Assembly (NCBI GenBank): GCA_016192685.1
Contig: JACPTS010000001.1
Coordinates: 311,647 to 375,646 of the forward strand
Direction: 5' to 3'
Length of the DNA: 64,000 nt
Source of the DNA: Candidatus Harrisonbacteria bacterium
GTDB taxonomy: Bacteria > Patescibacteriota > Minisyncoccia > UBA6257 > 02-FULL-45-10c
In this document: one piece after another, positions 19,159-33,100 of the stretch
Position numbering within the stretch: position 1 is the stretch's first letter
How the letters are laid out: each line of letters opens with the position of its first letter
Position numbers and translations under genes: made by a program
Notes under the pieces: generated by a model
What the model was told of the DNA's origin: nothing
Databases searched by the model: none
Seen by the model: the letters and a program-made list of their open reading frames with translations, nothing else

Positions 19159-20412
19159 ATGAAATACACATCTAAAAAATTACCAGACTCAATCATTGAG
19201 GCAGAGGTGGTTTTGGAGCATAAAGAATTTTTGGAATATTATCAGCCGATTTATGATCAGGCGCTGGCTTCGGTTAATCTTAAAGGTTTTCGGCCCGGAG
19301 CGGCGCCGAAAGATTTAGCGGAAAAAGCCGTGGACAAAGAAGCGGTTTTTAATGAAGCAGTGAATAAAGCTGTACGCGACTCCTTGCAAGAAATTACCGA
19401 AGAAAATAACTGGCAATTGATTGACCAGCCGAAGGTGGAAATCGTTGAAACCAATCCGCAAGAAAATGTCGGTCTTAAATTTAAAGCCACCATTACAATT
19501 TTTCCGGAAGTAAAATTGGGGAATTATCAAAAAATCGCTAAAAAGATTTTGGGAAGCGCTAAAAAAGATTTTTCCGCAAGCGAAGAAGAAATAAACCAAT
19601 CTCTTCAATGGATTTTAAATTCCAGGGCAAAAGTTACCCGGGTAGCGCGTGAGGCAAAAATGGGAGACGTGGTAGATTTGGATTTTTCCGGATTTGTTGA
19701 CGGGAAACCGCTTGATGGCGCAAGCGGCAAGGCGGATAATTTTGTTTTGGGCGAAGGGAAATTTATTAAAGGATTTGAAGAAAATTTGATTGGACATAAA
19801 GAGGGTGAACATTTGGAATTTTCAGTGAATTTTCCGGCGGATTATTGGAAAAAAGAACTCCAAAATCAAAAGGTGGATTTTCAAGCTGATTTAAAAGGCG
19901 TTTTTGAACGGGAACTGCCGGAATTAACCGATGATTTCGTAAAAAGTCTCGGCAAATTTGAAAATGCCGCCACGCTTAAAACTAGTATCCGAGAAGGAAT
20001 TGCCAAGGAAAAAGAAATGAAAGAAAATGAACGCCTGCGCCTGAAAATTTTTGAGGAAATCATTAAAAATTCTGAAATTGCGCCGCCGCGAATTATGGTG
20101 GAGCGCACTCTGGATAATTTAATCGCGGAATACAAGAATTTAGTAAAAAATCCCGATGAAAAAATCGCTGTTAGAAAAAATTTAGAGGAGAAAGCCAAAA
20201 ACAGCGTGGCTACCAATTTAATCTTGTATCAAATTGCCAAAGAGCAAAAAATTGAGCCGTCTCAAGAAGAGATAGAATCAGAGGCCAATAAAGCCCTTTC
20301 CCATTCTGAATTCAGGAAAAATCCGAAAATTGACGTCCAGCGGCTTTACGATTATATTTATGGTGAGCTTCGAAATAAGAAAATTTTTGAATATTTGGAA
20401 TCATTAAAATAA
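19159..20412 (+). CDS. tig: trigger factor
   Basis: 417 aa; N-terminal ribosome-binding domain, FKBP-type PPIase core (GFRPG..), C-terminal arm. Confidence 0.85.
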
Positions 20413-20413
20413 T

Positions 20414-21016
20414 ATGGAACACAGCGATTATTTAATTCCAACGGTCATAGAAAAAACCCAAGCTGGCGAGCGGGCTTATGACATTTATTCCCGGCTTTTA
20501 AAAGAGCGGATAATTTTTTTGGGCGGACCGATCAATGATGGAGTGGCCAATACCGTGATCGCGCAAATGCTTTTTTTGGAGCATGAAGACCCCAAAAAAG
20601 ACATTAAGCTTTATATAAATTCTCCGGGCGGTTCAGTGACTGCCGGTTTAGCAATTTACGATACGATGCAATATATCAAGCCGGATGTTTCCACGATTTG
20701 CGTTGGCATTGCCGCTTCTATGGGCGCTGTTCTTCTGGCAGCCGGGAAAAAAGGCAAAAGAATTGCTCTGCCAAATTCCGAAGTGCTTTTGCACCAAGTG
20801 ATGGGCGGCGCGGAAGGGCAAGCGGTGGAAATTGAAATTACAGCGAAACACATTGTCCGGATGAAAGAGCAGTTAAGTCAAATTCTTGCCAAACATACCG
20901 GACAGACGCTTTCAAAAATTGAAAAAGATACTGATAGAGATTTTTGGCTGACGGCGGCTGAAGCAAAAGAATACGGGGCGGTAGATGAAGTTTTGAAAGG
21001 AAGGAATGCAAAATAA
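20414..21016 (+). CDS. clpP: ATP-dependent Clp protease proteolytic subunit
   Basis: 200 aa; catalytic GIAASMGA (Ser), His and Asp context; tig-clpP synteny. Confidence 0.9.
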
Positions 21017-21088
21017 CGCAAGCCCGCAAGGCTTGCGATTTTTTTATTTTCGGGTTATTTTCTAATAAAAGGCTTTTGAGGAGAACGG

Positions 21089-21430
21089 ATGTCCATTGAT
21101 AAATTTTATGCCTGTTGGGAGGGGATGCATTTTTCCAATGCTGAATATGGAATTTGGGATTTGCCTTTTATCTATTTTTTGCATGACTGTTTGGGGGAAC
21201 GGCGGGGAGGAATTTTATTTTTAGCGGTTGACGGCGTAGAGCGGCGGCTTGGTGCTGATCGGGTAAAAATTCTAAAAAAGATATTCCAATCTCGGGATTT
21301 TGATAAAGTAATTTTACGTCCAGATGAAGATAATAACCTTTATTGCCTTGTTGCCGATACTGGCGATGATGAAGCGGATTGGATTTGGGTGGGAGAAATT
21401 ATTGACCCCACTGATCCGCGGCAGCGCTAG
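21089..21430 (+). CDS. hypothetical protein (occupies the usual clpX position)
   Basis: 113 aa, no recognisable domain; followed by intrinsic terminator atcctca-ttttatttt-gaggattttttg at about 21445-21475. Confidence 0.4.
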   Translation: MSIDKFYACWEGMHFSNAEYGIWDLPFIYFLHDCLGERRGGILFLAVDGVERRLGADRVKILKKIFQSRDFDKVILRPDEDNNLYCLVADTGDDEADWIWVGEIIDPTDPRQR

Positions 21431-21467
21431 AAACCTATGATAATCCTCATTTTATTTTGAGGATTTT

Positions 21468-22646
21468 TTGTTTTATAATATAAAAATGGCAAATAATGAT
21501 TTATTAACTCGGGGCGTTATAGAAATAATTGGAAAAGAGCATTTGGAAACCGCGCTTCATAGCGGCAGGAAATTACGGGTGAAATTCGGCATTGATCCGA
21601 CTTCGCCGGATTTGCATTTGGGGCACACGGTGCCGCTTCGGAAACTCCGCCAGTTTCAGGATGCCGGCCATACAGCGGTTTTGATTATCGGCGATTTTAC
21701 CGCTAAAATCGGCGATCCATCCGGCCGCGATAAAACCCGTCCCCAGCTTTCTGATAAAGAAATTAAAACCAACTTTAAAACTTATTTGAATCAAGCGAAG
21801 AAAGTTTTGGATATGAAAAAAACCGAGATTCATTATAATAGCGAATGGTTGAAAAAAGATAAGCTGATTTTAGAGTTGATGTCCCAGATGTCAATGGAGA
21901 GAGTGATGGAGCGGGAGGATTTCCAAAAAAGAATTAAAGCCGGACAAGAAGTAACTATGCTGGAGGCGCTTTACCCGATTTTACAAGGCTATGATTCAGT
22001 GGCAGTTCGCGCTGATGTAGAAATCGGCGGCAATGACCAAAAATTTAATCTTTTAATGGGCCGGCGGCTTCAAAGAAAATACGGCCAGAGCGAGCAGGAC
22101 GTGGTTATGCTTCCGCTTTTGGAAGGCACGGATGGCGTACAAAAAATGAGCAAAAGTTTGGGAAATTACATTGGGCTTGCGGAAAAGCCGGAAATTATGT
22201 TCGGGAAAATTATGTCGGTGCCGGATGAATTGATTTTAAAATACGCGGAACTTTTAACTGATTTGCCATTAGATAAGATATCGGCAAAAGCAAAATCCGA
22301 CCCTCGCGGCGCCAAAATGGACCTGGCCAAAACTTTGACAAAAATGTATCACGGAAAATCTGCCGGCGAAAAAGCGGAAAAAGAATTTGTGCGAATAGTA
22401 TCTAAAAAAGAAACACCAACAGAAGTTAAAAGTTTAAAGTTAAAAGTTATAAAGTTATCTTTGATTGATTTACTCGTTGAAACTAAATTAGCTTCCAGCA
22501 AAAGCGAAGCCAGGCGGCTTATTCAGCAGGGAGGAGTTAAAATCAACGGGGAAAAACAAGTTGACCCGGGCAAAACCGTTGATTTAAAGAAAGAAATTTT
22601 ATTGCAGGTTGGTAAAATGAAATACTTGAAAATTCGCAGAGGATAA
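21468..22646 (+). CDS. tyrS: tyrosine--tRNA ligase
   Basis: HIGH-like motif HLGH, KMSKS motif, C-terminal S4 domain; true start may be the ATG at 21486 (MANNDLL). Confidence 0.85.
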   Translation: MFYNIKMANNDLLTRGVIEIIGKEHLETALHSGRKLRVKFGIDPTSPDLHLGHTVPLRKLRQFQDAGHTAVLIIGDFTAKIGDPSGRDKTRPQLSDKEIKTNFKTYLNQAKKVLDMKKTEIHYNSEWLKKDKLILELMSQMSMERVMEREDFQKRIKAGQEVTMLEALYPILQGYDSVAVRADVEIGGNDQKFNLLMGRRLQRKYGQSEQDVVMLPLLEGTDGVQKMSKSLGNYIGLAEKPEIMFGKIMSVPDELILKYAELLTDLPLDKISAKAKSDPRGAKMDLAKTLTKMYHGKSAGEKAEKEFVRIVSKKETPTEVKSLKLKVIKLSLIDLLVETKLASSKSEARRLIQQGGVKINGEKQVDPGKTVDLKKEILLQVGKMKYLKIRRG

Positions 22647-22684
22647 TATAAAATTCTAATTAGTTTCTTTAAAAGGAGGGGGTA

Positions 22685-22957
22685 ATGAAACGCGGAAAAG
22701 GAGCAGTGAGACGCAGAAAAAAAGATACGGCTCAGAAAGTTCGGGAGTTAAGGCATCTTTTGGGCGGCCGGAGAGCAGTTGTCCGGACGATGGAAGCGGC
22801 GTCTTCTTCCAGTTTGAAGAGGTGGGAGCAAAAAGAATGTTCCCCATTGCGCGCCCATGTGAAATTGGTAGATGAAACTTACGGCCTCGCAAGAAGAATG
22901 GGGAAAGTAATGCTTAGAAGATTGAGGGATAAAAATGGACATCCCCGCCCGAGTTAA
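22685..22957 (+). CDS. small highly basic hypothetical protein (GC-rich)
   Basis: 90 aa, Arg/Lys-rich; strong SD aaaggaggggg; overlaps the next gene by 23 nt. Confidence 0.4.
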   Translation: MKRGKGAVRRRKKDTAQKVRELRHLLGGRRAVVRTMEAASSSSLKRWEQKECSPLRAHVKLVDETYGLARRMGKVMLRRLRDKNGHPRPS

Positions 22958-23273
22958 TAAACTGCTTGTTCATTTTGGTGTAAATCAGAAAAGGCTTGCT
23001 TTGATGCTTCGGGTTTCCGAATCAACCGTAAAACGCTGGCAGAAAGGGATTGGCGTAAGTAGAACGGATAGGTTGCCGGCATTTCGAAAATTGGAAGACT
23101 TAATGAAATTAACAGAAAAAACTTTAAGCAATGAAGGCATTCCCCGTTGGTATCATCGCCCCGCGGAACTTTTCGGCCGAGAAACGCCGATTGAATTTAT
23201 GATTAAAAATGACAGCGGCATAGAAAGAGTTACCAATCTTGTTGGACAGATACGCTGGGGAATTTTACCCTGA
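22935..23273 (+). CDS. Xre-type HTH + DUF2384-like (MbcA/ParS antitoxin-like) protein
   Basis: 112 aa; N-terminal HTH (QKRLALMLRVSESTVKRWQKG); C-terminal RWYHRPAELFGRETPIEFMIKNDSGIERVTNLVGQIRWG resembles the RES-toxin-binding antitoxin domain; no RES gene visible. Confidence 0.5.
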   Translation: MDIPARVNKLLVHFGVNQKRLALMLRVSESTVKRWQKGIGVSRTDRLPAFRKLEDLMKLTEKTLSNEGIPRWYHRPAELFGRETPIEFMIKNDSGIERVTNLVGQIRWGILP

Positions 23274-23285
23274 TAGTACGAAAGG

Positions 23286-23308
23286 CCGGTTTTATAACCG
23301 GTTTTTTA
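23286..23308 (+). terminator. intrinsic terminator
   Basis: ccggtt-ttat-aaccgg followed by tttttta. Confidence 0.6.
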
Positions 23309-23313
23309 TTTGA

Positions 23314-23382
23314 CCCCGCACATAACTAAGACAATTAAAAATTACGAAACCTTTGGTTTCGCAGTCTTAATTATGTGTGGGG
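23314..23382. repeat. long imperfect inverted repeat (19-bp arms) abutting the thr promoter -35
   Basis: ccccgcacataactaagac ... gtcttaattatgtgtgggg with inner hairpin cgaaacc-tttg-gtttcg; mismatches are G-U compatible. Confidence 0.6.
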
Positions 23383-23383
23383 T

Positions 23384-23411
23384 TTGACGCCATAAATTAG
23401 TTTGTTATAAT
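23384..23411 (+). promoter_or_regulatory. sigma70-type promoter of the thr operon leader
   Basis: TTGACG - 16 nt - TATAAT; predicted TSS at or immediately before the leader ATG (possibly leaderless). Confidence 0.6.
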
Positions 23412-23418
23412 AAAATTA

Positions 23419-23481
23419 ATGAAAATTATTGCCACTACAACCACTGCCGCCGTTTCTAGCATTTTTGCTGGGGTATTTTAG
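23419..23481 (+). CDS. thr operon leader peptide (MKIIATTTTAAVSSIFAGVF)
   Basis: 20 codons with 4 consecutive Thr codons plus 3 Ile codons, followed 25 nt later by the attenuator terminator. Confidence 0.65.
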   Translation: MKIIATTTTAAVSSIFAGVF

Positions 23482-23506
23482 TAGTTTTAATAAATTAAGT
23501 TACTAA

Positions 23507-23535
23507 ATCGCCCCGCAACGCGGGGCGATTGTTTT
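23507..23535 (+). terminator. thr attenuator (intrinsic terminator)
   Basis: atcgccccgc-aac-gcggggcgat + tgtttt, 10 nt upstream of the thrA ATG. Confidence 0.7.
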
Positions 23536-23544
23536 ATAAAACAT

Positions 23545-25965
23545 ATGGCGAAAATAACTAAAATTTTAAAATTCGGCGGTTCTTCGGTAGGAACGCCAAA
23601 AATGATTAAAAAGGTTGGTGAGATTGTTAAAATTGCTTCCAAAAAAGATAGGGTGGCAGTGGTAGTTTCGGCATTTCAGGGGGTGACTGATCAGCTTTTA
23701 AAGTGCGCCAAGCTTGCTGCCCAAAATAATTCTAAATTAGAAATAGAATTGAAAAATTTAAAAAATCGTCATTTTCAAGCCATTCAGTTATTAGTTGAAA
23801 ATAAAAAGTTAAAAGGAGGAAGTTTAAATTATGCGGAAAATTTATTTAAAGAACTGCAATTTATTTTAGAAAAGATTGCTAAGGAGAAAATAGCTTCGCC
23901 AAAAAATTTAGATTGGGTCGCTAGTTTTGGCGAGCGGCTTTCCGCTTATATCATCGCGGCTTCTATAAAAAATGCTTATTTTGTTGATGCGAGAGAATTA
24001 GTAAAAACTAATAATAATTTTACCAAGGCCGCTGTTGATTTTGGAAAAACCAATCGTCGAATCAAAAATTTCTTTAAAAATAAAAAGGGGATTCCTATTA
24101 TAACTGGGTTTCTTGGTTCTACCGCGAAAGGCGAAACTATTACTTTGGGGCGAGGCGGGTCTGATTATACCGCCTCAATTTTTGGCGCAGCATTAGAAGT
24201 AAAAGTTATAGAAATTTGGACAGATGTGGATGGCGTGATGAGCGCCGATCCACGATTAGTCCGAAGCGCTCAAGTTTTACCAAAAATCAGTTACGAAGAA
24301 GCTGTAGAAATGGCTTATTTTGGAGCTAAAGTGATTCATCCGGCCACCATGCTTCCGGCAATTAAAAATGGCATTCCGATTTTGATTAAAAATACTTTTA
24401 ATCCAAAAGCGCTCGGAACTTTGATTCAGAAAGAATTAATACCGGCGCCGACGATTAAAGGAATAACCGCGATGGATGATATTTCGTTAGTTACGATTAG
24501 GGGTGTCAGTTTGGCAGGAATTCCCGGTAGCGCCGCCAGAGTTTTTAGCGCCACCGCCAAAGCCAAGGCAAATGTTATTTTAATTTCACAAGCCTCTTCC
24601 GAACACACTATTTGCTTTGCCGTTAAAACTAATGAGCTTCGGGCCGCGCTGGGAGGGTTAAAAAAGGAATTTCAAAAAGAAATAAAATACAGGCAAGTCG
24701 GTATAAATACTATTTTAAATCAATCCATTCTTGCCATGGTTGGCGATGGGATGCGCGGCGTCCCCGGTATCGCGGGGCGGCTTTTTAGCATGCTTGGTGA
24801 TAATGGAGTTAATGTAACTGCCATTGCCCAAGGCGGCTCCGAACGGAATATTTCTTTTGTGGTTGACGCTAAAAATAAAGTGAAGGCTTTAAATGTTGTT
24901 CATGGGGAATTTTTTGAAGGCGGCGTGAAAAATATCTTTCTAGCCGGAACCGGCAATATCGGCAGCGCCCTACTTAATCAAATTTATTCAATATTAAGGA
25001 CATCGGGTGTCCAAAGATTGAAAATACGCGGCATAATTGACGCTTTTAATATGATAATAAATGAGCGCGGGGTTAATTTAAGAAACTGGAAAAATAAATT
25101 AAAAAAAGCAGAAAAACCAAACTTTAATAAATGGCTAGAACAAACAAAATCTTTGCCATTGGGAAATAAAATTTTTGTAGATTGCACTGCCAGCGAAGCG
25201 GTGGCTAAAAAATATATTGAAATTGCGGAAGCCGGATTCCATATCGTGACGCCGAATAAGAAATTTAATGTTTTGCCGATGAAAGAATATCGGAAATTGC
25301 GTGAGGTAATGGTGAAAAATAAAAAGCAGTTTTTATACGAAACCAATGTCGGCGCCGCTTTGCCGATTATATCCACTTTGCGGGATTTGCTGAAAACCGG
25401 CGATAAAATTACCAAAATTGAAGGTATTTTTTCCGGAACTCTTAGTTTTATCTTTAATTCTTACGACGGCAGTCGGTCATTCAGTGAAGTGGTAGCGGAA
25501 GCGAAAAAACTTGGATACACAGAGCCGGATCCGCGCGAAGATTTAAACGGCAATGATGTTGGCAGAAAGCTTTTAGTGCTTGCGCGGGAAACTGGATTAG
25601 AAATGGAAATGAAAGACATAAAAATTGAGAATTTAGTTCCGCGCACACTGCTATCTCGCGGGATAGCACCGGAAGATTTTTTAAAGAGACTGGAAAAATA
25701 TGATGACTATTTTAAAAAATTATTAGAAAAAGCAAAATCTAAAAATAAAGTTCTCCGATATGTCGCCAAATTAGAAAAAGGAAAGGTGGCCGCGGGATTA
25801 CAAGAAATTTCTTTAGATAACCCGCTTGCCAATACCAGAGATGCTGACAATATTTTTGCTTTTTACACCAAGCGATATAATAAAAGGCCTTTGGTCGTTC
25901 AGGGTCCGGGAGCTGGACGGGAAGTAACTGCGGCTGGGGTGCTGGCGGATATTTTAAGAATATGA
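23545..25965 (+). CDS. thrA: bifunctional aspartokinase / homoserine dehydrogenase
   Basis: 806 aa; N-terminal amino-acid kinase domain (KFGGSSVG), two ACT domains, C-terminal NAD-binding homoserine dehydrogenase domain. Confidence 0.85.
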   Translation: MAKITKILKFGGSSVGTPKMIKKVGEIVKIASKKDRVAVVVSAFQGVTDQLLKCAKLAAQNNSKLEIELKNLKNRHFQAIQLLVENKKLKGGSLNYAENLFKELQFILEKIAKEKIASPKNLDWVASFGERLSAYIIAASIKNAYFVDARELVKTNNNFTKAAVDFGKTNRRIKNFFKNKKGIPIITGFLGSTAKGETITLGRGGSDYTASIFGAALEVKVIEIWTDVDGVMSADPRLVRSAQVLPKISYEEAVEMAYFGAKVIHPATMLPAIKNGIPILIKNTFNPKALGTLIQKELIPAPTIKGITAMDDISLVTIRGVSLAGIPGSAARVFSATAKAKANVILISQASSEHTICFAVKTNELRAALGGLKKEFQKEIKYRQVGINTILNQSILAMVGDGMRGVPGIAGRLFSMLGDNGVNVTAIAQGGSERNISFVVDAKNKVKALNVVHGEFFEGGVKNIFLAGTGNIGSALLNQIYSILRTSGVQRLKIRGIIDAFNMIINERGVNLRNWKNKLKKAEKPNFNKWLEQTKSLPLGNKIFVDCTASEAVAKKYIEIAEAGFHIVTPNKKFNVLPMKEYRKLREVMVKNKKQFLYETNVGAALPIISTLRDLLKTGDKITKIEGIFSGTLSFIFNSYDGSRSFSEVVAEAKKLGYTEPDPREDLNGNDVGRKLLVLARETGLEMEMKDIKIENLVPRTLLSRGIAPEDFLKRLEKYDDYFKKLLEKAKSKNKVLRYVAKLEKGKVAAGLQEISLDNPLANTRDADNIFAFYTKRYNKRPLVVQGPGAGREVTAAGVLADILRI

Positions 25966-27041
25966 AGAAAAGAGAGTTAAAAGTTAATAGTAAAAGGTTA
26001 AATGTTGGCATCTTGGGTGCCACTGGGATGGTTGGGCAGAGATTTGTGACGCTTTTGGAAAATCATCCGTGGTTTGAGGTGGTGAGTTTAGCGGCTTCGC
26101 CGCAATCGGCCGGGAAAACTTATGAGGAGGCAGTGTCTGGCCGTTGGGTTATGAAAAATTCAGTTCCAGAAAAATTACGCGGTTTAAAAATAAAAGTGGT
26201 TGAAGAAGATTTTGATGAAATTGTAAAAGAGGTGGACTTAGTATTTTCCGCTATTGATGCTGATAAAGAAAAAATCAAAGAAATTGAATTGCGATATGCC
26301 ACGGCTGGCGTGGCAGTAGTTTCCAATAATTCCGCGCATCGCTGGACCCAAGATGTGCCGATGATAATTCCCGAAATAAACGCGCATCATTTATCTTTAA
26401 TTGATATCCAGAAGAAAAATCGGGGTTGGGAAAAGGGGTTGCTCGTAGTGAAGCCAAATTGTTCTTTGCAGTCATATCTTCCAGTAGTATACGCGCTTAA
26501 AAAATTCGGCCCTAAAGAAGTTTTAGTTACGACTTTGCAGGCAATTTCCGGCGCCGGAAAAACTTTTGAATCGTGGCCGGAAATGCTGGATAACTGCATT
26601 CCTTTTATAAAAGGCGAGGAAGAAAAAACTGAAAAAGAACCGACAAAAATCTGGGGCGCGGGCTGTCCGGCTATTTCCGCCACCTGCATCCGTGTTCCAA
26701 TCTCGGATGGCCATATGGCAAGCGTTTCGGTAAAATTTGAAAATAAACCCTCGTTACAACAAATAAGAGATGCGATTGATAGTTTTCCAAATCCTTTGGC
26801 TAGCTTAGACTTACCGTCAGCTCCAAAAAAATTTATCAAATATTTTCTAGAAGATGATCGGCCGCAGACTAAATTAGATCGGGATTATGAAGGCGGCTTG
26901 GGCATTACTTGCGGGAGATTTCGCGAAGATGGAAATAATAGCTGGAAATTTGTTTCTCTTTCCCATAACACAATCCGTGGCGCTGCCGGCGGAGCGATTT
27001 TAATCGCCGAACTTTTGTATAAGAAAGGATATTTAAAATGA
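25962..27041 (+). CDS. asd: aspartate-semialdehyde dehydrogenase
   Basis: 359 aa; VGILGATGMVGQRF Rossmann N-terminus; active-site Cys context; overlaps the thrA stop. Confidence 0.85.
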   Translation: MKKRELKVNSKRLNVGILGATGMVGQRFVTLLENHPWFEVVSLAASPQSAGKTYEEAVSGRWVMKNSVPEKLRGLKIKVVEEDFDEIVKEVDLVFSAIDADKEKIKEIELRYATAGVAVVSNNSAHRWTQDVPMIIPEINAHHLSLIDIQKKNRGWEKGLLVVKPNCSLQSYLPVVYALKKFGPKEVLVTTLQAISGAGKTFESWPEMLDNCIPFIKGEEEKTEKEPTKIWGAGCPAISATCIRVPISDGHMASVSVKFENKPSLQQIRDAIDSFPNPLASLDLPSAPKKFIKYFLEDDRPQTKLDRDYEGGLGITCGRFREDGNNSWKFVSLSHNTIRGAAGGAILIAELLYKKGYLK

Positions 27042-27532
27042 AAGGAATTACTTTAATCGGAATGCCGGGATCGGGGAAATCTACTATCGGTAAATTACTT
27101 GCCAAAAAATTGGGGTGTAAATTTGTTGACTTGGATATCTTGATTAAAGAAAAAGAAAACCGCGGACATGAGGAAATTTTAGAAAAAGACGGCGGGGCGG
27201 AACTTTTGCGGCTGGAAAATTTGTATACTCTTGATTTGGATTTAGAAAATACCGTCTTTTCCCCCGGCGGAAGCATTGTTTATTCTTTGCCGGCAATGAG
27301 AAAACTCCAAAAAGAAACTAATATTATTTATTTAAAATTACCGCTTTTGGAAATAGAAAATCGTTTAGGCGGCAAAATTGATAGCCGGGGAATTGTTGGT
27401 TTTAAAGAAAAAGGGATTAAAAAGCTTTTTCGAGAACGGGATATTTTATATAAAAATTTTTCCCATAAAATCATTTCCTGTTTGGGATTAGATAAAGAAC
27501 AGCTTATTTATGAAATTTTACAGCACCAATAA
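27038..27532 (+). CDS. shikimate-kinase-family P-loop kinase embedded in the thr operon (candidate non-orthologous homoserine kinase)
   Basis: 164 aa; Walker A GMPGSGKST, FVDLD, SPGGSIV (SK-type GGG motif); overlaps asd stop and thrC start. Confidence 0.6.
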   Translation: MKGITLIGMPGSGKSTIGKLLAKKLGCKFVDLDILIKEKENRGHEEILEKDGGAELLRLENLYTLDLDLENTVFSPGGSIVYSLPAMRKLQKETNIIYLKLPLLEIENRLGGKIDSRGIVGFKEKGIKKLFRERDILYKNFSHKIISCLGLDKEQLIYEILQHQ

Positions 27533-28868
27533 CCCTCCTTCGCATAAAGCTACGGAAGGCAAGAAAATCCATTTCGTTGATTTTAGAACGGCACTGCTAC
27601 AAGGATTGGCTTTAGATGGCGGACTTTTTATGCCGGAAAGATTTCCAAAATTGAATAAGAAATTCTTAAAAGATATTTCTAAAAAGGAATTTTGGAAAAT
27701 CGCTCTGGAAATCAGCAAAGGTTTTATTAAAGATATTCCGGAAAGAGAATTAAAGAAGATGCTAAAAGACGCTTTTAATTTTGAAGTGCCGCTGAAAAAA
27801 ATAAACGAAAATTTATATATTTTAGAGCTTTGGCATGGGCCAACTTTGGCTTTCAAGGATTTTGGCGCGCGGTTTATGGCCCGGCTCATGAATTATTACC
27901 TGCGCCGCGAAAAGGAAAAATTAAACATTATTGTCGCTACTTCTGGGGACACCGGGAGTGCGGTGGCGCAAGGATTTTATGGATTATCTAACATAAAAGT
28001 TTTTGTTTTATATCCGAGTAAACGCATAACTGCGCTTCAAGAAAAACAAATGGCAACGCTCGGTAAAAACATTGTGTCATTGGAAGTAAAAGGAAATTTT
28101 GATGATTGCCAAAAACTTGCCAAACAAATATTGGCAGATAAAGATTTAAAAGAAAAAATAAATTTATCTTCAGCCAATTCTATAAATTTTGGAAGATTAC
28201 TTCCGCAATCCTTTTATTATTTTTACGGTTATGCCCAATTACTAAATAAGTTAAAAGTTAAAAGTGAAAAATTAAAAGTTATTTATTGTGTTCCCAGCGG
28301 GAATTTCGGCAATTTAACCGCCGGATTAATGGCGAAACAAATGGGTTTGCCCGTGAAACAATTTATCGCGGCGACGAATGCGAATGATATTGTTCCGCAA
28401 TATCTCAGAACCGGAAAATTTGTTTCACGCGTTTCGTGTAAAACAATTTCTAACGCCATGGATGTCGGCAATCCGAGCAATTTTGCGAGGATGCTGGAAA
28501 TGTTTCACGGCGATGTAAAACAAATGCGCCGCGAAATTATTGGTTTCGGTGTAAGTGACAAACAAACGCGTGAAACAATTAAAAATGTTTATCGTAAAAC
28601 CGGCTATATTTTAGATCCGCATACTGCGGTTGGAATTGCCGCGGCGCGCAAAAGCAATATTTTGCAACCGATTATCGTATTAAGCACCGCGCATCCTGCT
28701 AAATTCAGAGAAGCGGTGGAGCCGGTTATAAGCAAAAAGATTTCCTTGCCGCCGCAGCTCAAAAAAATTATTAATAAAGCCAAAAAGGCGACTTTGGTGG
28801 AAAATAATGTTGAGACGGTTAAGCGGATTATTTTAGAAAAATATGGACATATCAAAAAAACCGCCTGA
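27510..28868 (+). CDS. thrC: threonine synthase
   Basis: 452 aa; PLP-fold; FKDFGARFMA, ATSGDTGSA motifs. Confidence 0.85.
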   Translation: MKFYSTNNPPSHKATEGKKIHFVDFRTALLQGLALDGGLFMPERFPKLNKKFLKDISKKEFWKIALEISKGFIKDIPERELKKMLKDAFNFEVPLKKINENLYILELWHGPTLAFKDFGARFMARLMNYYLRREKEKLNIIVATSGDTGSAVAQGFYGLSNIKVFVLYPSKRITALQEKQMATLGKNIVSLEVKGNFDDCQKLAKQILADKDLKEKINLSSANSINFGRLLPQSFYYFYGYAQLLNKLKVKSEKLKVIYCVPSGNFGNLTAGLMAKQMGLPVKQFIAATNANDIVPQYLRTGKFVSRVSCKTISNAMDVGNPSNFARMLEMFHGDVKQMRREIIGFGVSDKQTRETIKNVYRKTGYILDPHTAVGIAAARKSNILQPIIVLSTAHPAKFREAVEPVISKKISLPPQLKKIINKAKKATLVENNVETVKRIILEKYGHIKKTA

Positions 28869-28885
28869 AAGCGGTTTAAAAATTT

Positions 28886-29197
28886 TTACTTAGAGCTCTT
28901 ACATAATGACATAATTCCTTCCTCCATCATTTTTTTGAGTTCGTCGGCATGCCACCGATTATCAGTAGTTGCCCATCCGTCAATCATTCGCGCCAGTATT
29001 GGCTCTTTTACATTTTTAATTTCGTAAGCCAATGCCTCCTTAATTTGTTTGGCAAGGTATTCCTTATTGCTCAAAATACAATTATATTGCCAAAACATTT
29101 CAACGCCAGCAGCGAATAATACTGATTTTTCTGTTTCCAGATACACATGCTTAACATAACCGCGCCAACCTTTAAAAGTAAGCCTATGCACTTTCAT
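28886..29197 (-). CDS. hypothetical protein
   Basis: 103 aa; shares a bidirectional terminator (accgc-ctgaaa-gcggt) with thrC at about 28858-28885. Confidence 0.4.
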   Translation of the reverse strand: MKVHRLTFKGWRGYVKHVYLETEKSVLFAAGVEMFWQYNCILSNKEYLAKQIKEALAYEIKNVKEPILARMIDGWATTDNRWHADELKKMMEEGIMSLCKSSK

Positions 29198-29329
29198 TGG
29201 CTGCTCTTTTATTTTTTAGAAATAACTATTAAGTAGATTAATAAGAAATTATTCCTAAGTCAAGTTCTGGAGTGGGTAACTAGAGTCGAACATTTATGAT
29301 ATACTAATATAGTATAATATAAGGTTTAT

Positions 29330-29992
29330 ATGCTGACAATAAGAAAAGAAAAATATCTTGCTATTAAATTACGCAAGCAAAATAAAAGCTATGATGAAAT
29401 TAATAAAATTCTTGGAATATCTAAGAGTACTTTAGCTGGGTGGCTTAAAAATGACCCCAGTTCTAAAAAAGCAAAATTATTTCTTAATAGCAAATCTAAC
29501 AAAAAGGTAGCTGAAAGAATTCAAAAATTTGTTGAAGAAAATAGAAAACGTCACGAGAATCGAAGAAAAGATATTCGAAATGAAGCAATAAAACAATTTG
29601 AGATCTTACAAAAAGATCATTTATTTATTGCTGGAACAATGCTCTATTGGGCAGAGGGCGATAATAAGCTAGGAAATCCATTTAGATTGACAAACACAGA
29701 TCCAAGAATGATATCTCTGTATATAAAATATTTGATAAAAATCCTTAATATTTCTGAAAAAGAAATACGACCAGCCATTATTCTTTACCCGGATTTATTA
29801 GAAAGGGAATGTATAAAATTTTGGTCAAAAATTACTGGAGTAAATTCTAGTCAATTTTACAAAACTCAATTCATCAAAGGGAAACATCCTACAAAAAGAT
29901 TATCTCACGGTATTTGCATGATAAATTGCAATAATAGACCTACAAAACAAAAAATATTGGCATGGATTGATTTATTGAGTAAAACCTTATAA
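29330..29992 (+). CDS. HTH-domain protein, possibly a degenerate LAGLIDADG-like fold
   Basis: 220 aa; N-terminal HTH (YDEINKILGISKSTLAGWLK); central FIAGTMLYWAEGDN weakly resembles a LAGLIDADG helix; next to tRNA-Gly. Confidence 0.35.
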   Translation: MLTIRKEKYLAIKLRKQNKSYDEINKILGISKSTLAGWLKNDPSSKKAKLFLNSKSNKKVAERIQKFVEENRKRHENRRKDIRNEAIKQFEILQKDHLFIAGTMLYWAEGDNKLGNPFRLTNTDPRMISLYIKYLIKILNISEKEIRPAIILYPDLLERECIKFWSKITGVNSSQFYKTQFIKGKHPTKRLSHGICMINCNNRPTKQKILAWIDLLSKTL

Positions 29993-30005
29993 AATAATTT
30001 ATATT

Positions 30006-30076
30006 GCGGGTATCGTATAGTGGTAATACGTCACCTTGCCAAGGTGAGGTCGCGGGTCCGATTCCCGCTACCCGCT
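30006..30076 (+). tRNA. tRNA-Gly(GCC)
   Basis: cloverleaf, anticodon loop uuGCCaa. Confidence 0.8.
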
Positions 30077-30084
30077 CAGTAAAA

Positions 30085-30118
30085 ATAAAAAACCGCACGT
30101 AAAGTGCGGTATTTATTT
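30085..30118. terminator. bidirectional intrinsic terminator
   Basis: accgcac-gtaaa-gtgcggt with A/T runs on both sides. Confidence 0.65.
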
Positions 30119-33100
30119 TACCAGTTGTAGCCGAGCCAGAAATTCCAGTCTTGCTTTCCGTATAATCCTTTACTGAATCTTGCATTCAGTCCGAGCGCAG
30201 TCGGGATATTTATGAAATATCCGGCGCTTTGCTCTAACTTCAATCCGCGATGCCCTTCAATAAACGGGGATGTTTTATCAAACCACATATCGCCAATATC
30301 ATGATATAACCCGCCGCGAATATCCAGATAAACGGTAAGCGGAGCAAACGCTTCACCAATTGGTCCGCTTATCACCGCGCCAGCCGCATTGAGAATCGGA
30401 AAACGCAATTCCGTGCTTTGCATGAGATAGCTGTTGCCCGCCTGACTGAATAACGGAATGCCTCGGAAAGTTTGATTGCCGCCCCAGATGAAAATAGTGG
30501 AATTGGGGCCGAAACTTCGGCCGCCAACCGCGCGCAATGCCAAACCGGCTCGCTCAGCGAGCGGCAAATGATATCGGGCATCCGCGTTTATTTCAATAGT
30601 TTGGAATCCTTTCTTGTGGTCAAAACCAATTTCGGTTCCGGTAAAAACCGCGGCTCCGGAATGCGGGCCGTGGCAATACCATTGATTGGCTTGGCAGTCC
30701 CAGATAGTGGTGTCTAAACTCAAGCTGGTGCCGAGCTTGGAACGCCACCATTGTACCGTGCCGGAATCCCGTTCATTTCTCACCGTTTGTTCTTTGAGGG
30801 TAACATCCCAATTGAGGAATTCATGCAGGAAGATATTTTGCGAAACGCCGACATCCATTTTATGGCGCCGGCCGTCAAAATTCCAATAGTCAAGCAGATA
30901 AGATCTGCCGGTATGCAAATTGTAATACTGGATATCCGCAAACCCCTGATTGCTGTTTTGGAGGTAAACATTGGCTGCCAATAATCGGTCATTAATTTCA
31001 TCAAGGGCCATTCCTTGCAGAGCCAGATAGCTGTTGATGCCGCCGCCGCCGAAAATAACGCCGCCAACGCCTTGAGCCTGCATTATTCTGGGCAACTTCA
31101 ATAAATTTCGGTATCGCTTTGGAATGCCGGATTTGGTATTCCATTGCCTAGCGGGAACCGCTGTTTGTTTTGAATTAACGCCGTAAGAAGAATAAACAAT
31201 CAAGTACGGAGAATTTTCGTCATTAGTTTCCATCAGGCCGCTTCCGTATACCCTTATGTTTCTATCCAGACCATAGGCATTGCCGACGGTTAAAAAGAGA
31301 GTATCATTTTTTAATTCAGCTTTTTTGACTAGCGGGATTCCGGAAGCAACCGGTGTCAGGCTGCTGGAAGCGGTGTCAAACAGAAAAATATCCAAACCAG
31401 TTTCTTTCTGCGGAACAATAAGGAATATTTTCGCTCCGTTCAGAAGCGGGTACCAGGCGATTTGTTTTTCCACCTTGACGTTCTCGGGAAAAATTTTATC
31501 CCAAGTTTTATCGGTTTCGGTGGTTACATCAAGTTCGCTGATGCTGGCATTCCATTTTTTATCCAATACCAGAATTTTGGTTTCCGATACAAAAGCCGCG
31601 TCTTGTATTTCATAGAATTCTTTACGGAATTTCTTTTTTTCTTTGCCTATTGCGTCGTAAAGAATAATTTTTGTGCGGCTCTTATCAGCCCAAATGAAAT
31701 AACGCTGGTCCGGAGACAACTTGGACAGGAAACGATTGCTTCCGGAAGATTCAGACGTGATTTCCGTATCTAGGTCATGGATTTTACCCTCCAGCCAATC
31801 GTAGATATAAGATTCTTTGTATATCACTTCTTCTTCCGGGTTTTGGGCATCGGTAATTTCGCTGTTTTTTTCAATGCTTATCATCCGCCTTTGCAATAAG
31901 GCGTTGGTTCCCGCAAGTAAAGAAATGCCGCCGTAATGTTTCATCTTTTTGAATTCATCAAGAGTGAATTGGATTGCCGTTCCAGTGGAAGAATCTGTGA
32001 GCCAGAAGCGCATTTCCGTATCGCCGCTCTTGAGAACTTCCATTGATAATTTTCTGTTTTCAACAAATAGCGCCCTGGTTTTATCTGAAGACAATGCTAC
32101 GTCAAAAATCGTCTTAGATTCCGCATCGGGAATTTTTTCACGCAGGCGCCGCACTTCAGGCCTATCCCATATTGAATCAGTGGAATGGCTGGAAGTGTTC
32201 GCAGTTACGGATGTTGAAATTGAGATTGTTTGGGGAAAAGGAGCGGTTTTTACCGACATTTCTCCTCGGGAAATAAAATTGAACGCCAATCCGCCATCGC
32301 CAAACCATTGGGGCCTAAAGATGCCGATTTTCGCGTCAGTCAATACTTCGTCAACGCGCGTGAAAAGATTGTAGCGGTGAATATTATGCGCCAATCCTTT
32401 ATCGCTGATATACAGCAAGTGGGCGCCATCAGAGGAACAAGCCGCGTAAAATTCGCTTTCCGGCGTTTGGGTTAAAAATGTAAATGTTCCGGCCGCAAGA
32501 TCGTAGAGCGCCAAGTCGTAAGAATTATTAACTTCGTTTTCAACGGAGGTAATAAGCGCGTTGCGCATTTTTGAGTAAGCCAGGCCGCGATAAGTTCGTT
32601 GGGTTGAAGTCAATTGTTTTACGGTTCCGGAACTAATATCGGCCAAAAAAAGTTCGGCGAATACGCCGTCGGCTCTGCCGACAAACGCCGCTTCTCGGTC
32701 ATTCAATATAATAGGATGCCGCATTTCGCGTATGCCATTGAATTGATGCTTAGATTTTTTGCCAAGATGAAATTTCTTTTTGTCTTTATCAAATGAAAAC
32801 TGCTGGATGACAAGCGCGTCTTGGCCGCCGACATCTATGGCGTAAGCCAGCGTTGCGCTGGAAGCAAATGACGCGCCGTGTTCCTGAAAGCCGAATTCCG
32901 GAGAAAGCTCCACTTCAAATCCTCTGACATCAACGCTTTTTAATCGGCCGCCTTCAACTAATTTTTTGGATTTTACAGCTGTGCCGTCAGTCCAGTTGAG
33001 AAACAGCGTTTCCCGGCCGTAAACTTCTTTTTTGGTGATGAAGAATTGATCGCGAGCGGCCAGAAGTGTTCCGTCGCCAATTGATATTGCTTCATCGGCA

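What the first reader, a model, noticed from the sequence alone, without database searches (positions are those of the whole stretch)
23384..23547. Classical ribosome-mediated attenuator: Thr/Ile-codon leader peptide and terminator upstream of thrA
A TTGACG-16-TATAAT promoter is followed by a 20-codon ORF MKIIATTTTAAVSSIFAGVF with four consecutive Thr and three Ile codons. About 25 nt later comes the hairpin atcgccccgc-aac-gcggggcgat plus a U-run, 10 nt before the thrA start. The leader ATG lies at or next to the predicted TSS with no SD, so it may be a leaderless transcript. The segment gctgggg at the leader-ORF end can alternatively pair with ccccgc of the terminator, making it a candidate antiterminator. 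Thr-type attenuation is textbook for Proteobacteria but notable in a reduced, possibly candidate-phylum genome.
Basis: partly seen in the sequence, partly recalled or inferred. Interest (0 to 1): 0.5.

Follow-up and report, generated by a model that had tools for sequence, protein, structure and literature searches.

The report
Threonine leader-peptide attenuator in a Patescibacterium
A very short gene packed with threonine codons, followed by a stop-transcription hairpin, sits in front of the threonine-synthesis genes of a candidate-phyla-radiation bacterium; it looks like the textbook ribosome-sensed "attenuator" switch, here conserved in a lineage where it has not been described.

Summary

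**What is there**
- Window 23384-23537 holds an extended -10 promoter.
- Its -10 element ends 7 nt before the ATG of a 20-codon ORF, MKIIATTTTAAVSSIFAGVF.
- An 11-bp terminator hairpin with a U-tract follows, 14 nt before thrA.
- The operon is thrA-asd-(shikimate-kinase-like homoserine kinase)-thrC.
- The genome is Patescibacteria (CPR), a relative of Harrisonbacteria.

**Conservation**
- Nine further distinct orthologous loci (ThrA 63-77% identical) share the architecture.
- Each has a -10 element 6-9 nt before the ATG and a 15-21-codon ORF with 3-7 consecutive Thr codons.
- Each has a terminator and an antiterminator that sequesters the terminator's 5' arm.

- The antiterminator is larger than proposed. 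It is a two-part helix of about -20 kcal/mol, and its 5' strand spans the leader stop codon.
- It covaries with the terminator, and also with nucleotides in the terminator loop.
- Ile codons are not conserved, so this is a Thr sensor, not a Thr/Ile sensor.

**Classification**
- It does not match Rfam Thr_leader or any other Rfam family.
- Loci with decayed thr operons lack the leader.
- Verdict: a new member of the known class of ribosome-mediated transcription attenuators. Function is inferred from sequence, not demonstrated.

The parts
23286..23307 (+). Upstream insulating terminator: hairpin CCGGTT-TTAT-AACCGG plus TTTTTT. It ends the preceding Xre-antitoxin-like gene.
   Evidence: Read directly from the sequence. 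The terminator scan did not list it. Equivalent upstream terminators precede the leader promoter in L081, L088, L094, L095, L097 and L098.
23384..23411 (+). Promoter: -35 TTGACG (23384-23389), 16-nt spacer, extended -10 TGtTATAAT (23403-23411).
   Evidence: 11 of 12 matches with TG, the joint-best match in 20000-32000. Read off the upstream sequences printed, a TGnTAnnnT extended -10 ends 6-9 nt before the leader ATG in all 10 orthologous leaders.
23419..23481 (+). Leader ORF, 20 codons plus UAG: MKIIATTTTAAVSSIFAGVF. The ATG lies 7 nt after the -10 element, so the mRNA is inferred to be leaderless or to carry a 5' UTR of at most 1-2 nt.
   Evidence: Orthologous leaders are 15-21 codons, each with a Thr run in frame with the 5'-proximal ATG.
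23434..23445 (+). Regulatory codons: four consecutive Thr codons ACU ACA ACC ACU (codons 6-9). This is the inferred ribosome stall site when Thr-tRNA is scarce.
   Evidence: There are 3-7 consecutive Thr codons (4-9 in total) in all 10 leaders. Third codon positions vary while Thr coding is kept.
23465..23474 (+). Antiterminator stem A, 5' strand (UUGC-U-GGGGU). It lies inside the footprint of a ribosome at the stop codon.
   Evidence: Covariation with the 3' partner. The strand starts between -14 and +2 nt of the stop codon in 10 of 10 leaders.
23477..23487 (+). Antiterminator stem B, 5' strand (UUUAGUAGUUU), which contains the leader stop codon UAG (23479-23481). It can also pair with the Thr codons, in the manner of a classical 1:2 stem.
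   Evidence: The nucleotides are conserved in L092, L096 and L098 even though they are no longer coding there.
23497..23507 (+). Antiterminator stem B, 3' strand (AAGUUACUAAA).
   Evidence: A compensatory change is seen in L088 (UUUAGUG/CACUAAA), and the helix is kept with altered sequence in L095 and L092.
23510..23518 (+). Antiterminator stem A, 3' strand (GCCCCGCAA). It comprises 7 nt of the terminator 5' arm plus 2 nt of the terminator loop.
23506..23537 (+). Intrinsic terminator (attenuator): AAUCGCCCCGC-AAC-GCGGGGCGAUU plus GUUUUAU.
   Evidence: -19.3 kcal/mol, z = -4.7. A hairpin plus U-tract is present in all 10 orthologous leaders, with different stem sequences.
23545..25965 (+). thrA, bifunctional aspartate kinase/homoserine dehydrogenase I. 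It is the first regulated gene.
   Evidence: NF006959, 946 bits, cutoff 726. The start is fixed by the conserved N-terminal KFGGSS motif.
25962..27041 (+). asd, aspartate-semialdehyde dehydrogenase of the archaeal type. It overlaps thrA by 4 nt.
   Evidence: NF006416, 451 bits; TIGR00978 asd_EA, 347 bits.
27038..27532 (+). Shikimate-kinase-family protein, probably the homoserine kinase of the pathway.
   Evidence: the best NCBIfam hit is NF040667 hom_kin_desulfo, 119.6 bits, below the 197 cutoff. Pfam SKI. Experimental precedent for a homoserine kinase related to shikimate kinase: PMC5764234. The function here is inferred.
27510..28868 (+). thrC, threonine synthase. It is the last gene of the operon and is followed by a terminator at 28858-28877.
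   Evidence: TIGR00260, 321 bits; terminator.

Best explanation
This is a threonine-responsive, ribosome-mediated transcription attenuator controlling the operon thrA-asd-(homoserine kinase)-thrC in a Patescibacteria (CPR) genome.

**Start of the transcript.** Transcription starts at or within 1-2 nt of the leader AUG, from an extended -10 promoter whose -10 ends 7 nt upstream. The 20-codon leader is therefore translated as a leaderless mRNA.

**Thr-tRNA scarce.**
- The ribosome stalls on the four Thr codons (23434-23445).
- RNA downstream of about nt 40 of the leader stays free.
- A two-part antiterminator helix forms as soon as its 3' strand is transcribed.
- Stem A is 23465-23474 paired with 23510-23518. 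Stem B is 23477-23487 paired with 23497-23507.
- The helix sequesters 9 of the 11 nt of the terminator's 5' arm, so RNA polymerase reads through into thrA.

**Thr-tRNA plentiful.**
- The ribosome runs to the UAG, which lies inside stem B.
- Its footprint covers the 5' strands of stems A and B.
- The 5' arm is left free to form the terminator (23506-23530 plus U-tract), and transcription stops 14 nt before thrA.

**No translation.** The Thr codons and neighbouring RNA pair with the stem A/B 5' strands, like a classical 1:2 structure. This also favours termination.

**Shown versus inferred.**
- Shown: the sequence elements, their conservation, the alternative folds and the covariation.
- Inferred: the transcription start site, translation of the leader, stalling, and the regulatory outcome.
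For: **Elements present**
- Promoter, ORF, terminator and thrA are at the stated coordinates.
- Terminator: -19.3 kcal/mol, z = -4.7. Antiterminator 23465-23519: -19.7 kcal/mol, z = -4.4. In both cases 0 of 200 shuffles fold as well.

**Conservation**
- Ten distinct leaders come from Patescibacteria loci with the same synteny, (tig)-clpP-tyrS-(small ORF)-thrA-asd-SKI-thrC, and ThrA 63-100% identical.
- All ten have a TGnTAnnnT -10 element 6-9 nt before the ATG.
- All ten have a 15-21-codon ORF with a Thr run in frame, and a hairpin plus U-tract.

**Constrained folds**
- With a ribosome stalled on the Thr run, and before the 3' arm is made, all 10 leaders form the two-part antiterminator.
- Its energy ranges from -6.7 to -26.1 kcal/mol, and it sequesters 3-9 nt of the terminator 5' arm.
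- With a ribosome at the stop codon, all 10 form the terminator.
- In L001 and L094 the antiterminator is the unconstrained minimum-energy fold; this also held for L095.

**Shuffle control**
- At most 1.2% of 500 dinucleotide shuffles reach the antiterminator energy in 9 of 10 leaders.

**Covariation**
- Three-way covariation occurs at one core position (5' strand / terminator 5' arm / terminator 3' arm): G-C-G in 4 leaders, A-U-A in 3, G-U-G in 1, A-C-G in 2.
- The four outer pairs of stem A use 3' partners that lie mostly in the terminator loop. They are therefore not constrained by the terminator, yet they covary: for example C-G in 7 leaders and U-A in 3.
- Those outer pairs are paired in 35 of 40 cells, against 23.8 +/- 2.1 in column shuffles (0 of 2000 reach the observed value).
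- The whole of stem A is paired in 73 of 80 cells, against 21-39 of 80 in slid registers and a maximum of 69 in shuffles.

**Geometry**
- The stem A 5' strand starts between -14 and +2 nt of the stop codon in 10 of 10 leaders.
- The antiterminator helix predicted begins 11-21 nt beyond the last codon of the first Thr run.

**Biology**
- Leaders occur where the operon seen so far is contiguous: through thrC in the window, L088 and L090, and as far as the SKI gene in L092 and L094-L098.
- They are absent where the operon has decayed. L089 has thrA-asd only. L100/L101 carry a retroelement insertion and no thrC.

**Plausibility of leaderless initiation**
- Only 15 of 55 window genes have a Shine-Dalgarno-like motif.
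- -10 hexamers pile up exactly 6 nt before start codons: 6 genes, against about 1 per other offset.

**Intrinsic terminators in use**
- Terminator-like hairpins with U-tracts also sit at ordinary operon ends in this genome: 21017-21037, 28858-28877 and 30092-30110.
Against: - There is no experimental or transcriptomic evidence. The transcription start site, translation of the leader and termination at the hairpin are all inferred.
- Once fully transcribed, the window's terminator state is thermodynamically favoured even with the stall mask applied (-31.2 kcal/mol). The antiterminator must therefore win kinetically. This is usual for attenuators, but it is untested here.
- The antiterminator is weak in L097 and L098 (-9.9 and -6.7 kcal/mol, with a retained A.C mismatch). 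L098 does not beat its shuffles (fraction 0.078).
- The covariation rests on a hand-anchored alignment of only 10 related sequences, two pairs of which are close sisters. MAFFT plus RNAalifold did not recover the helices.
- L082 (ThrA 76% identical) lacks the leader, and its operon state could not be seen because the contig is only 2.2 kb.
- Whether transcription and translation are coupled in CPR bacteria is unknown.
Confidence: 0.85

Rival explanations
1. The promoter, short ORF and hairpin form an independent small transcript, either a small-protein gene or an sRNA with its own terminator. On this view thrA is expressed separately and is not regulated by threonine.
For: The leader unit is a complete promoter-ORF-terminator cassette. 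In several loci 35-47 nt of AT-rich sequence lie between the terminator and thrA, which could in principle hold a promoter.
Against: - In the window only 14 nt, and in L001 only 8 nt, separate the terminator from the thrA ATG. That leaves no room for a promoter.
- The only conserved feature of the peptide is the Thr run. The C-terminal residues follow RNA-level conservation, and those nucleotides remain conserved where they are no longer coding.
- The 5' strand covaries with terminator-loop nucleotides, which only makes sense for a switch.
- The cassette is always upstream of thrA and is lost when the thr operon decays.
Confidence: 0.05
2. The ACN repeats and alternative hairpins are read without translation, by an RNA-binding protein, by uncharged tRNA as in a T-box, or by a small ligand as in a riboswitch. 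On this view the short ORF is incidental.
For: ACN triplet repeats could in principle be a protein-binding array, as in TRAP-type systems. No direct evidence of translation exists.
Against: - No Rfam family, including T-box, reaches threshold even in a permissive scan of 23280-23600.
- The whole leader upstream of the antiterminator is only about 45 nt, which is too small for a T-box or a typical aptamer.
- In all 10 leaders the ACN run is in frame with an ATG placed 6-9 nt after the -10 element, and an in-frame stop lies next to or within the antiterminator 5' strand.
- Third codon positions vary (ACU, ACA, ACC, ACG) while Thr coding is kept.
Confidence: 0.05
3. The switch is a translational attenuator. 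Ribosome stalling in the leader remodels RNA structure to expose the thrA ribosome-binding region, as in the mycobacterial leaderless poly-Cys short ORFs, rather than controlling transcription termination.
For: Leaderless short-ORF attenuators that act on translation are documented (bioRxiv 10.1101/834739). In the window the hairpin ends only 14 nt from the thrA ATG.
Against: - The hairpin is always followed directly by a U-tract, the signature of an intrinsic terminator.
- The distance from hairpin to thrA ATG varies from 8 to 47 nt, so the hairpin cannot consistently occlude the start region.
- thrA has no Shine-Dalgarno sequence to sequester.
Confidence: 0.05

Closest known systems
E. coli / gammaproteobacterial thr operon leader (thrL; Rfam RF00506 Thr_leader)
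   Same: - The logic and the target are the same: a short leader ORF rich in Thr codons, an intrinsic terminator just upstream of thrA, a mutually exclusive antiterminator, and the stop codon next to the antiterminator 5' strand.
- The first regulated gene is also a bifunctional aspartokinase/homoserine dehydrogenase I.
   Different: - There is no detectable sequence or structure homology: 15.7 bits against a gathering score of 55, E = 1.6.
- Ile codons are not conserved, so the sensor reads Thr only. From my own knowledge, E. coli thrL mixes 8 Thr and 4 Ile codons.
- The leader is leaderless rather than led by a Shine-Dalgarno sequence.
- The antiterminator is a two-part helix with the stop codon inside it.
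- The operon is thrA-asd-SKI-thrC rather than thrABC.
- The host is a CPR bacterium.
Leaderless poly-Cys short-ORF attenuators of mycobacteria (Canestrari et al., bioRxiv 10.1101/834739)
   Same: The sensory short ORF begins at the 5' end of a leaderless transcript. A run of codons for the pathway's end-product amino acid is read through ribosome stalling, which remodels downstream RNA structure.
   Different: [quoted passage not shown] Here the regulated structure is an intrinsic terminator with a U-tract. The amino acid (Thr rather than Cys) and the phylum also differ.
   Same: Short ORFs with Thr runs lie directly upstream of thrA. Examples are L031 MSGATTTITTTITVTTRPVRPVVFA, L051 ...ASTTTTTTTTTPRGARAV and L052 ...CETTTTITTTP.
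   Different: These peptides and RNAs are unrelated in sequence and longer, many mix Thr and Ile codons, and their genomes are G+C-rich. Their terminators and antiterminators were not analysed here. The L052 leader shows no similarity to the CPR leader.

Membership tests
Ribosome-mediated (leader-peptide) transcription attenuators (mechanistic class) | A promoter-proximal short ORF enriched in codons for the amino acid made by the downstream operon. | tested here: met
   The 20-codon ORF has 4 consecutive Thr codons upstream of thrA-asd-SKI-thrC. There are 3-7 consecutive Thr codons in all 10 orthologous leaders.
Ribosome-mediated (leader-peptide) transcription attenuators (mechanistic class) | An intrinsic terminator (G+C-rich hairpin plus U-tract) between the leader ORF and the first structural gene. 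| tested here: met
   23506-23537: 11 bp, -19.3 kcal/mol, z = -4.7. Present in 10 of 10 leaders.
Ribosome-mediated (leader-peptide) transcription attenuators (mechanistic class) | A mutually exclusive antiterminator that uses the terminator 5' arm. Its own 5' strand must be free when the ribosome stalls at the regulatory codons and covered when the ribosome reaches the stop codon. | tested here: met
   Constrained folds agree in 10 of 10 leaders. At most 1.2% of shuffles reach the energy in 9 of 10. The 5' strand starts between -14 and +2 nt of the stop codon, and the predicted helix begins 11-21 nt beyond the Thr run.
Ribosome-mediated (leader-peptide) transcription attenuators (mechanistic class) | Evolutionary support: compensatory changes that maintain both alternative helices. 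| tested here: met
   Three-way covariation G-C-G / A-U-A is seen. The outer stem A pairs covary with terminator-loop nucleotides: 35 of 40 cells paired against 23.8 +/- 2.1 in shuffles. Caveat: the alignment is hand-anchored and holds only 10 sequences.
Ribosome-mediated (leader-peptide) transcription attenuators (mechanistic class) | The leader is translated, and readthrough responds to charging of the cognate tRNA. | not testable with these tools
   This needs reporter, ribosome-profiling or Term-seq experiments.
Rfam RF00506 Thr_leader (proteobacterial thrL) | A covariance-model score at or above the family's gathering threshold of 55 bits. | tested here: not met
   15.7 bits, E = 1.6 in a permissive scan of 23280-23600. 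No hit at gathering thresholds across the whole window.
Rfam RF00506 Thr_leader (proteobacterial thrL) | A mixed run of Thr and Ile regulatory codons, giving multivalent Thr+Ile attenuation. | tested here: not met
   There are 0-3 Ile codons per leader, at non-conserved positions, and none in L094 and L098.
T-box leader (RF00230) | Stem I with a specifier loop and the conserved T-box antiterminator sequence, detectable with the Rfam model. | tested here: not met
   No T-box hit up to E = 10 in 23280-23600. Only about 45 nt lie upstream of the antiterminator.
Leaderless mRNA | A transcription start at, or within a few nt of, the start codon. | tested here: inconclusive
   The -10 hexamer ends 6-9 nt before the ATG in 10 of 10 leaders. 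The same geometry is seen for at least 6 ordinary genes in the window. The start site itself has not been mapped.

The most novel reading that the evidence does not exclude
This may be the first recognised family of ribosome-mediated transcription attenuators in the Candidate Phyla Radiation, and it may have arisen independently of proteobacterial thrL. It is read through a leaderless sensory ORF, and it guards one of the few complete amino-acid biosynthetic operons in these reduced genomes. If functional, it would imply three things about at least this Parcubacteria lineage: that transcription and translation are coupled there, that 70S-type leaderless initiation is routine, and that threonine synthesis is tuned to supply rather than relying wholly on a host.
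Probability: 0.55. Interest if true: 0.55.

Novelty: new member of a known kind. Interest (0 to 1): 0.4.

Why it matters
CPR/Patescibacteria are usually described as metabolically minimal and dependent on other cells, and very little is known about how they regulate genes.

A conserved Thr-codon attenuator in front of a complete Asp-to-Thr operon would show three things:
- Some of these organisms both make threonine and adjust that synthesis to Thr-tRNA charging.
- They use the classical coupling of translation to transcription termination.
- A leaderless start codon can serve as the entry point for the sensing ribosome.

It also has practical value:
- It gives annotators a concrete motif for finding unannotated sensory short ORFs in CPR genomes.
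- It flags that thrA start codons are being miscalled there.

The mechanism itself is textbook, so its value lies in extending it to a new lineage and in what it says about CPR physiology, not in a new principle.

Tried and rejected
1. **Rfam.** Neither the whole window at gathering thresholds nor a permissive scan of 23280-23600 gave a relevant family. The weak hits (JA04, rli38, Phe_leader, Thr_leader) merely align the generic terminator hairpin.

2. **Public collection scans.**
   - The genome-contig scan with a ThrA alignment was swamped by Proteobacteria and Acidobacteriota and yielded only one close relative, L001.
   - The metagenome scan with the single protein gave three usable loci.
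The remaining orthologues came from 12 exact-protein look-ups.

3. **Automatic structural alignment.**
   - MAFFT plus RNAalifold on the antiterminator region predicted no pairs, because the 3' strands were misaligned by 1-2 nt.
   - A five-sequence alignment had the same problem.
   - No covariance model was therefore built, and the count of structure pairs was not used.
   - Pair counts were made in Python on strands anchored on the GGGG/GAGG and CCCC/CCUC blocks.

4. **Ile co-sensing.** Rejected, because the Ile codons are not conserved.

5. **Sequestration of the thrA ribosome-binding site.** Rejected, because the spacing is variable at 8-47 nt and a U-tract is always present.

6. **The minus-strand ORF 23397-23462 (MLETAAVVVVAIIF...).** This is simply the antisense of the Thr run.

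7. **Other codon-run leaders in the window.** None were found in intergenic DNA.

8. **Inheritance with the operon from Bacteroidota.** The next-closest ThrA proteins are about 51% identical. The question could not be tested, because the look-ups were exhausted. The one Bacteroidia leader in hand, L052, is unrelated in sequence.


Full report
**1. The observation**

- The promoter scan of 20000-32000 gives TTGACG-16-TATAAT at 23384-23411. At 11 of 12 matches it ties with one minus-strand site (21894-21867) for the best match, and it is the only 11/12 site with a TG extended -10 motif.
- The ATG at 23419 lies 7 nt after the -10 hexamer. It opens a 20-codon ORF, 23419-23481, encoding MKIIATTTTAAVSSIFAGVF.
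- It is the first start codon after an in-frame stop, so no longer version of the ORF exists.
- Twenty-four nt after the stop codon comes the hairpin AAUCGCCCCGC-AAC-GCGGGGCGAUU plus GUUUUAU, at 23506-23537. It is listed first in the terminator scan of the 12 kb.
- The hairpin folds at -19.3 kcal/mol, z = -4.7.
- The thrA ATG is at 23545.
- This is the only intergenic short ORF with a Thr run in the 64-kb window.

**2. Context**

The downstream genes make up a complete aspartate-to-threonine pathway:

| Gene | Coordinates | Evidence |
|---|---|---|
| thrA | 23545-25965 | NF006959, 946 bits |
| asd (archaeal type) | 25962-27041 | NF006416, 451 bits |
| shikimate-kinase-family protein | 27038-27532 | best NCBIfam hit is the Desulfovibrio-type homoserine kinase NF040667, 119.6 bits, below cutoff |
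| thrC | 27510-28868 | TIGR00260, 321 bits |

- A homoserine kinase related to shikimate kinase has experimental precedent (PMC5764234).
- A terminator follows thrC at 28858-28877.
- Upstream, a hairpin plus T6 at 23286-23307 ends the preceding gene. The leader promoter therefore starts an insulated transcription unit.

The organism is a Patescibacterium.
- The roughly 50 best ThrA hits (57-77% identical) are from Patescibacteria, Harrisonbacteria or Minisyncoccota metagenome-assembled genomes.
- The next tier, at about 51% identity, is Bacteroidota and Ignavibacteria (taxonomy).
- The synteny (tig)-clpP-tyrS-(small ORF)-thrA-asd-SKI-thrC is shared with a Harrisonbacteria genome, L088.

**3. 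Orthologous leaders**

Upstream regions were recovered for ThrA orthologues 60-77% identical. Nine further distinct loci carry a leader:

| Locus | Leader peptide |
|---|---|
| L001 / L083 | MIFFALTTTTATIQANTGEF |
| L081 | MIKFIFTTTTFTTRLIAEEF |
| L088 | MKLVFAIITTTTTRFPAGEF |
| L094 | MRFSLTTTTATTTTQSVVGEF |
| L095 | MSLAIVTTTATTTRKFVGVC |
| L092 | METQSLTIVTGTTTTTTRL |
| L096 | METQSLIIVTETTTTTTRL |
| L097 | MNKVIFTTTTTTTSLQPRS |
| L098 | MNKVVFTTTTTTTSP |

- All ten leaders, counting the window, have a TGnTAnnnT extended -10 element ending 6-9 nt before the ATG. This is read off the sequences printed.
- All ten have a hairpin plus U-tract, from -7.7 to -18.6 kcal/mol, with quite different stem sequences.
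- The Thr run is the only conserved feature of the peptide. Ile codons number 0-3 and sit at non-conserved positions.
- The recurring C-terminal G-E-F reflects conserved nucleotides, GGGGAGUUUUAG. Those nucleotides persist in L092, L096 and L098, where the stop codon has moved upstream and they are no longer translated. The constraint is therefore on the RNA.
- L090 and L091 are cut by the contig end, but they retain a terminator 8 nt before thrA.

**4. The alternative structure**

Folding was done under ribosome-footprint constraints.
- With the A site on the last codon of the Thr run, and the terminator 3' arm not yet made, every leader forms the same two-part helix.
- With the ribosome on the stop codon, every leader forms the terminator.

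In the window the antiterminator is built as follows:
- Stem A: UUGC-U-GGGGU (23465-23474) pairs with GCCCCGCAA (23510-18).
- Stem B: UUUAGUAGUUU (23477-87, including the UAG) pairs with AAGUUACUAAA (23497-23507).
- Together they fold at -19.7 kcal/mol, z = -4.4; 0 of 200 shuffles fold as well.
- They occupy 9 of the 11 nt of the terminator 5' arm.

Other results:
- In L001 and L094 the antiterminator is the unconstrained minimum-energy fold; it was also so for L095.
- At most 1.2% of 500 dinucleotide shuffles of the intervening RNA match the observed energy in 9 of 10 leaders. L098 is the exception, at 7.8%.
- In the ribosome-free fold of the window and several others, the Thr codons (ACUAC) pair with GUAGU at the stop codon, and CUAGCA pairs with UGCUGG. 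This is a classical 1:2-type structure that withholds the antiterminator 5' strands.

**5. Covariation**

The strands were anchored on the GGGG/GAGG and CCCC/CCUC blocks.
- One core position changes in concert in three strands (antiterminator 5' strand / terminator 5' arm / terminator 3' arm): G-C-G in 4 leaders, A-U-A in 3, G-U-G in 1, A-C-G in 2.
- The four outer pairs of stem A use 3' partners that lie mostly in the terminator loop, so the terminator does not constrain them. They covary all the same: C-G in 7 leaders and U-A in 3 at the first; G-C, C-G, U-A and U-G at the second; U-A, A-U, G-C and C-G at the third.
- Those outer pairs are paired in 35 of 40 cells, against 23.8 +/- 2.1 in column shuffles; 0 of 2000 shuffles reach the observed value.
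- The whole of stem A is paired in 73 of 80 cells, against 21-39 of 80 when the partner strand is slid by 1-4 nt, and a shuffle maximum of 69.
- Stem B is A+U-rich and weak on its own, but it forms in every leader. L088 shows a compensatory change (UUUAGUG/CACUAAA), and the helix is kept with altered sequence in L095 and L092.

Caveats:
- There are only 10 related sequences, including two sister pairs.
- The alignment is hand-anchored.
- MAFFT plus RNAalifold misaligned the 3' strands and found nothing.

**6. Geometry**

- The stem A 5' strand starts between -14 and +2 nt of the first stop-codon nucleotide in all ten leaders. It is therefore inside the footprint of a terminating ribosome.
- The predicted antiterminator helix begins 11-21 nt beyond the last codon of the first Thr run. 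Leaders with the shortest spacing have the longest Thr runs, so a ribosome stalled within the run leaves the strand free.
- The terminator-to-thrA distance varies from 8 to 47 nt. This argues against sequestration of the thrA start region and for transcription termination.

**7. Leaderless initiation**

- The window's genes rarely have Shine-Dalgarno-like motifs: 15 of 55.
- -10-like hexamers pile up exactly 6 nt before start codons in 6 genes, for example 3375, 8036, 48601 and 50092. A second group of 4 genes lies at 9 nt. The background is about 1 per offset.
- Leaderless mRNAs therefore look routine in this genome. The leader ORF, at 7 nt, fits that pattern.
- The transcription start site is inferred, not mapped.

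**8. Correlation with pathway integrity**

- Leaders occur where the operon is contiguous as far as the available DNA shows. thrC is seen in the window, L088 and L090, and the operon is followed as far as the SKI gene in L092 and L094-L098.
- They are absent in L089, which has thrA-asd only.
- They are absent in L093/L100/L101. There, asd is separated from the SKI gene by an inserted bAvd plus reverse-transcriptase retroelement, and no thrC follows.
- L082 also lacks a leader, but its contig is too short to judge.
- L099 (60% identical) has a different gene order, and no leader lies directly before thrA.
- By ThrA identity, the leader-less loci (70-76%) are nested among the leader-bearing ones (63-77%). 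This suggests loss, but no tree was built.

**9. Comparison with known systems**

- Mechanistically this is the textbook leader-peptide attenuator.
- It is not a member of Rfam Thr_leader: 15.7 bits against a gathering score of 55. It is not a member of any other Rfam 15 family either.
- It differs from E. coli thrL in sensing Thr only, in being leaderless, and in embedding the stop codon in a two-part antiterminator.
- Leaderless sensory short ORFs are known in mycobacteria, but those act on translation of the downstream gene (10.1101/834739).
- Full-text searches found no paper linking leader-peptide attenuation with Patescibacteria or the CPR. This is absence within the held library, not proof of novelty.
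- Thr-rich leaders were also seen upstream of thrA in Lysobacterales, a myxobacterium and one Bacteroidia genome among the comparison loci. The strategy is therefore widespread and probably convergent.

**10. Verdict**

- I put about 0.85 on a threonine-responsive, ribosome-mediated transcription attenuator.
- It is a new member of a known kind. Its moderate interest comes from the lineage and the leaderless entry point, not from a new principle.

Noticed in passing
window-wide; e.g. 3375, 8036, 37889 (-), 43808 (-), 48601, 50092: Leaderless mRNAs look common in this genome. Only 15 of 55 genes have a Shine-Dalgarno-like motif. TATAAT-like hexamers end exactly 6 nt before the start codon in 6 genes and 9 nt before it in 4 more, against about 1 per other offset.
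   Followed up: partly
window 27038-27532 (+): The thr operon has no canonical thrB. In its place is a 164-aa shikimate-kinase-family protein (Pfam SKI). Its best NCBIfam hit is the Desulfovibrio-type homoserine kinase NF040667, at 119.6 bits, below the cutoff of 197. The same gene sits between asd and thrC in the orthologous Patescibacteria operons.
   Followed up: partly
window 23545 (thrA start); protein P0001: The 100%-identical database protein P0001 is 787 aa, against the 806-aa ORF here. The conserved N-terminal KFGGSS motif fixes the start at 23545, so the database call is most simply a start 19 codons too far downstream, perhaps because no Shine-Dalgarno sequence is present. L090, L091, L095 and L096 show similar miscalls.
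   Followed up: partly
L100 15210-16594; L101 6295-7679: A diversity-generating-retroelement-like pair, bAvd plus a reverse transcriptase (RVT_1), is inserted between asd and the SKI-family gene. This is a leader-less, decayed version of the thr operon in which thrC is not seen.
   Followed up: no
window 36417-36490 (-): A tRNA-Ile with anticodon UAU is present. From my own knowledge this species is unusual in bacteria, which normally read AUA with a lysidine-modified CAU tRNA. It may indicate a different AUA-decoding strategy in this lineage.
   Followed up: no
window 22685-22957 and 22935-23273 (+): Between tyrS and the leader promoter lie an unannotated 90-aa ORF and an overlapping 112-aa Xre/ParS-type antitoxin-like protein (PF09722; NF049845 below cutoff). 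No RES-type toxin was seen beside them. Related loci carry an unannotated 77-96-aa ORF at this position.
   Followed up: no
proteins P0053-P0120: Outside Patescibacteria, the ThrA of this clade is closest to Bacteroidota and Ignavibacteria proteins, at about 51% identity with a sharp drop from 57%. The asd gene is of the archaeal type. Together these hint that the thr operon was acquired horizontally or is mosaic.
   Followed up: no
L016, L020, L023-L025, L027, L028, L031, L037, L040, L045, L053, L055 (Lysobacterales), L051 (Pyxidicoccus), L052 (Bacteroidia): Thr-rich or Thr/Ile-rich short ORFs lie within 300 nt upstream of thrA in these unrelated genomes. Examples are MSGATTTITTTITVTTRPVRPVVFA and ...ASTTTTTTTTTPRGARAV. 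They are probably independent thr attenuators.
   Followed up: no
window 23454-23473 (+) and 23343-23363: Two extra hairpins flank the promoter and leader. The first, UUCUAGCAUUUUUGCUGGGG, lies inside the leader ORF. It competes for the antiterminator 5' strand and could act as a pause or 1:2-type element, but it seems specific to the window. The second, UACGAAACC-UUU-GGUUUCGCA, lies upstream of the -35 element and has no known role.
   Followed up: partly
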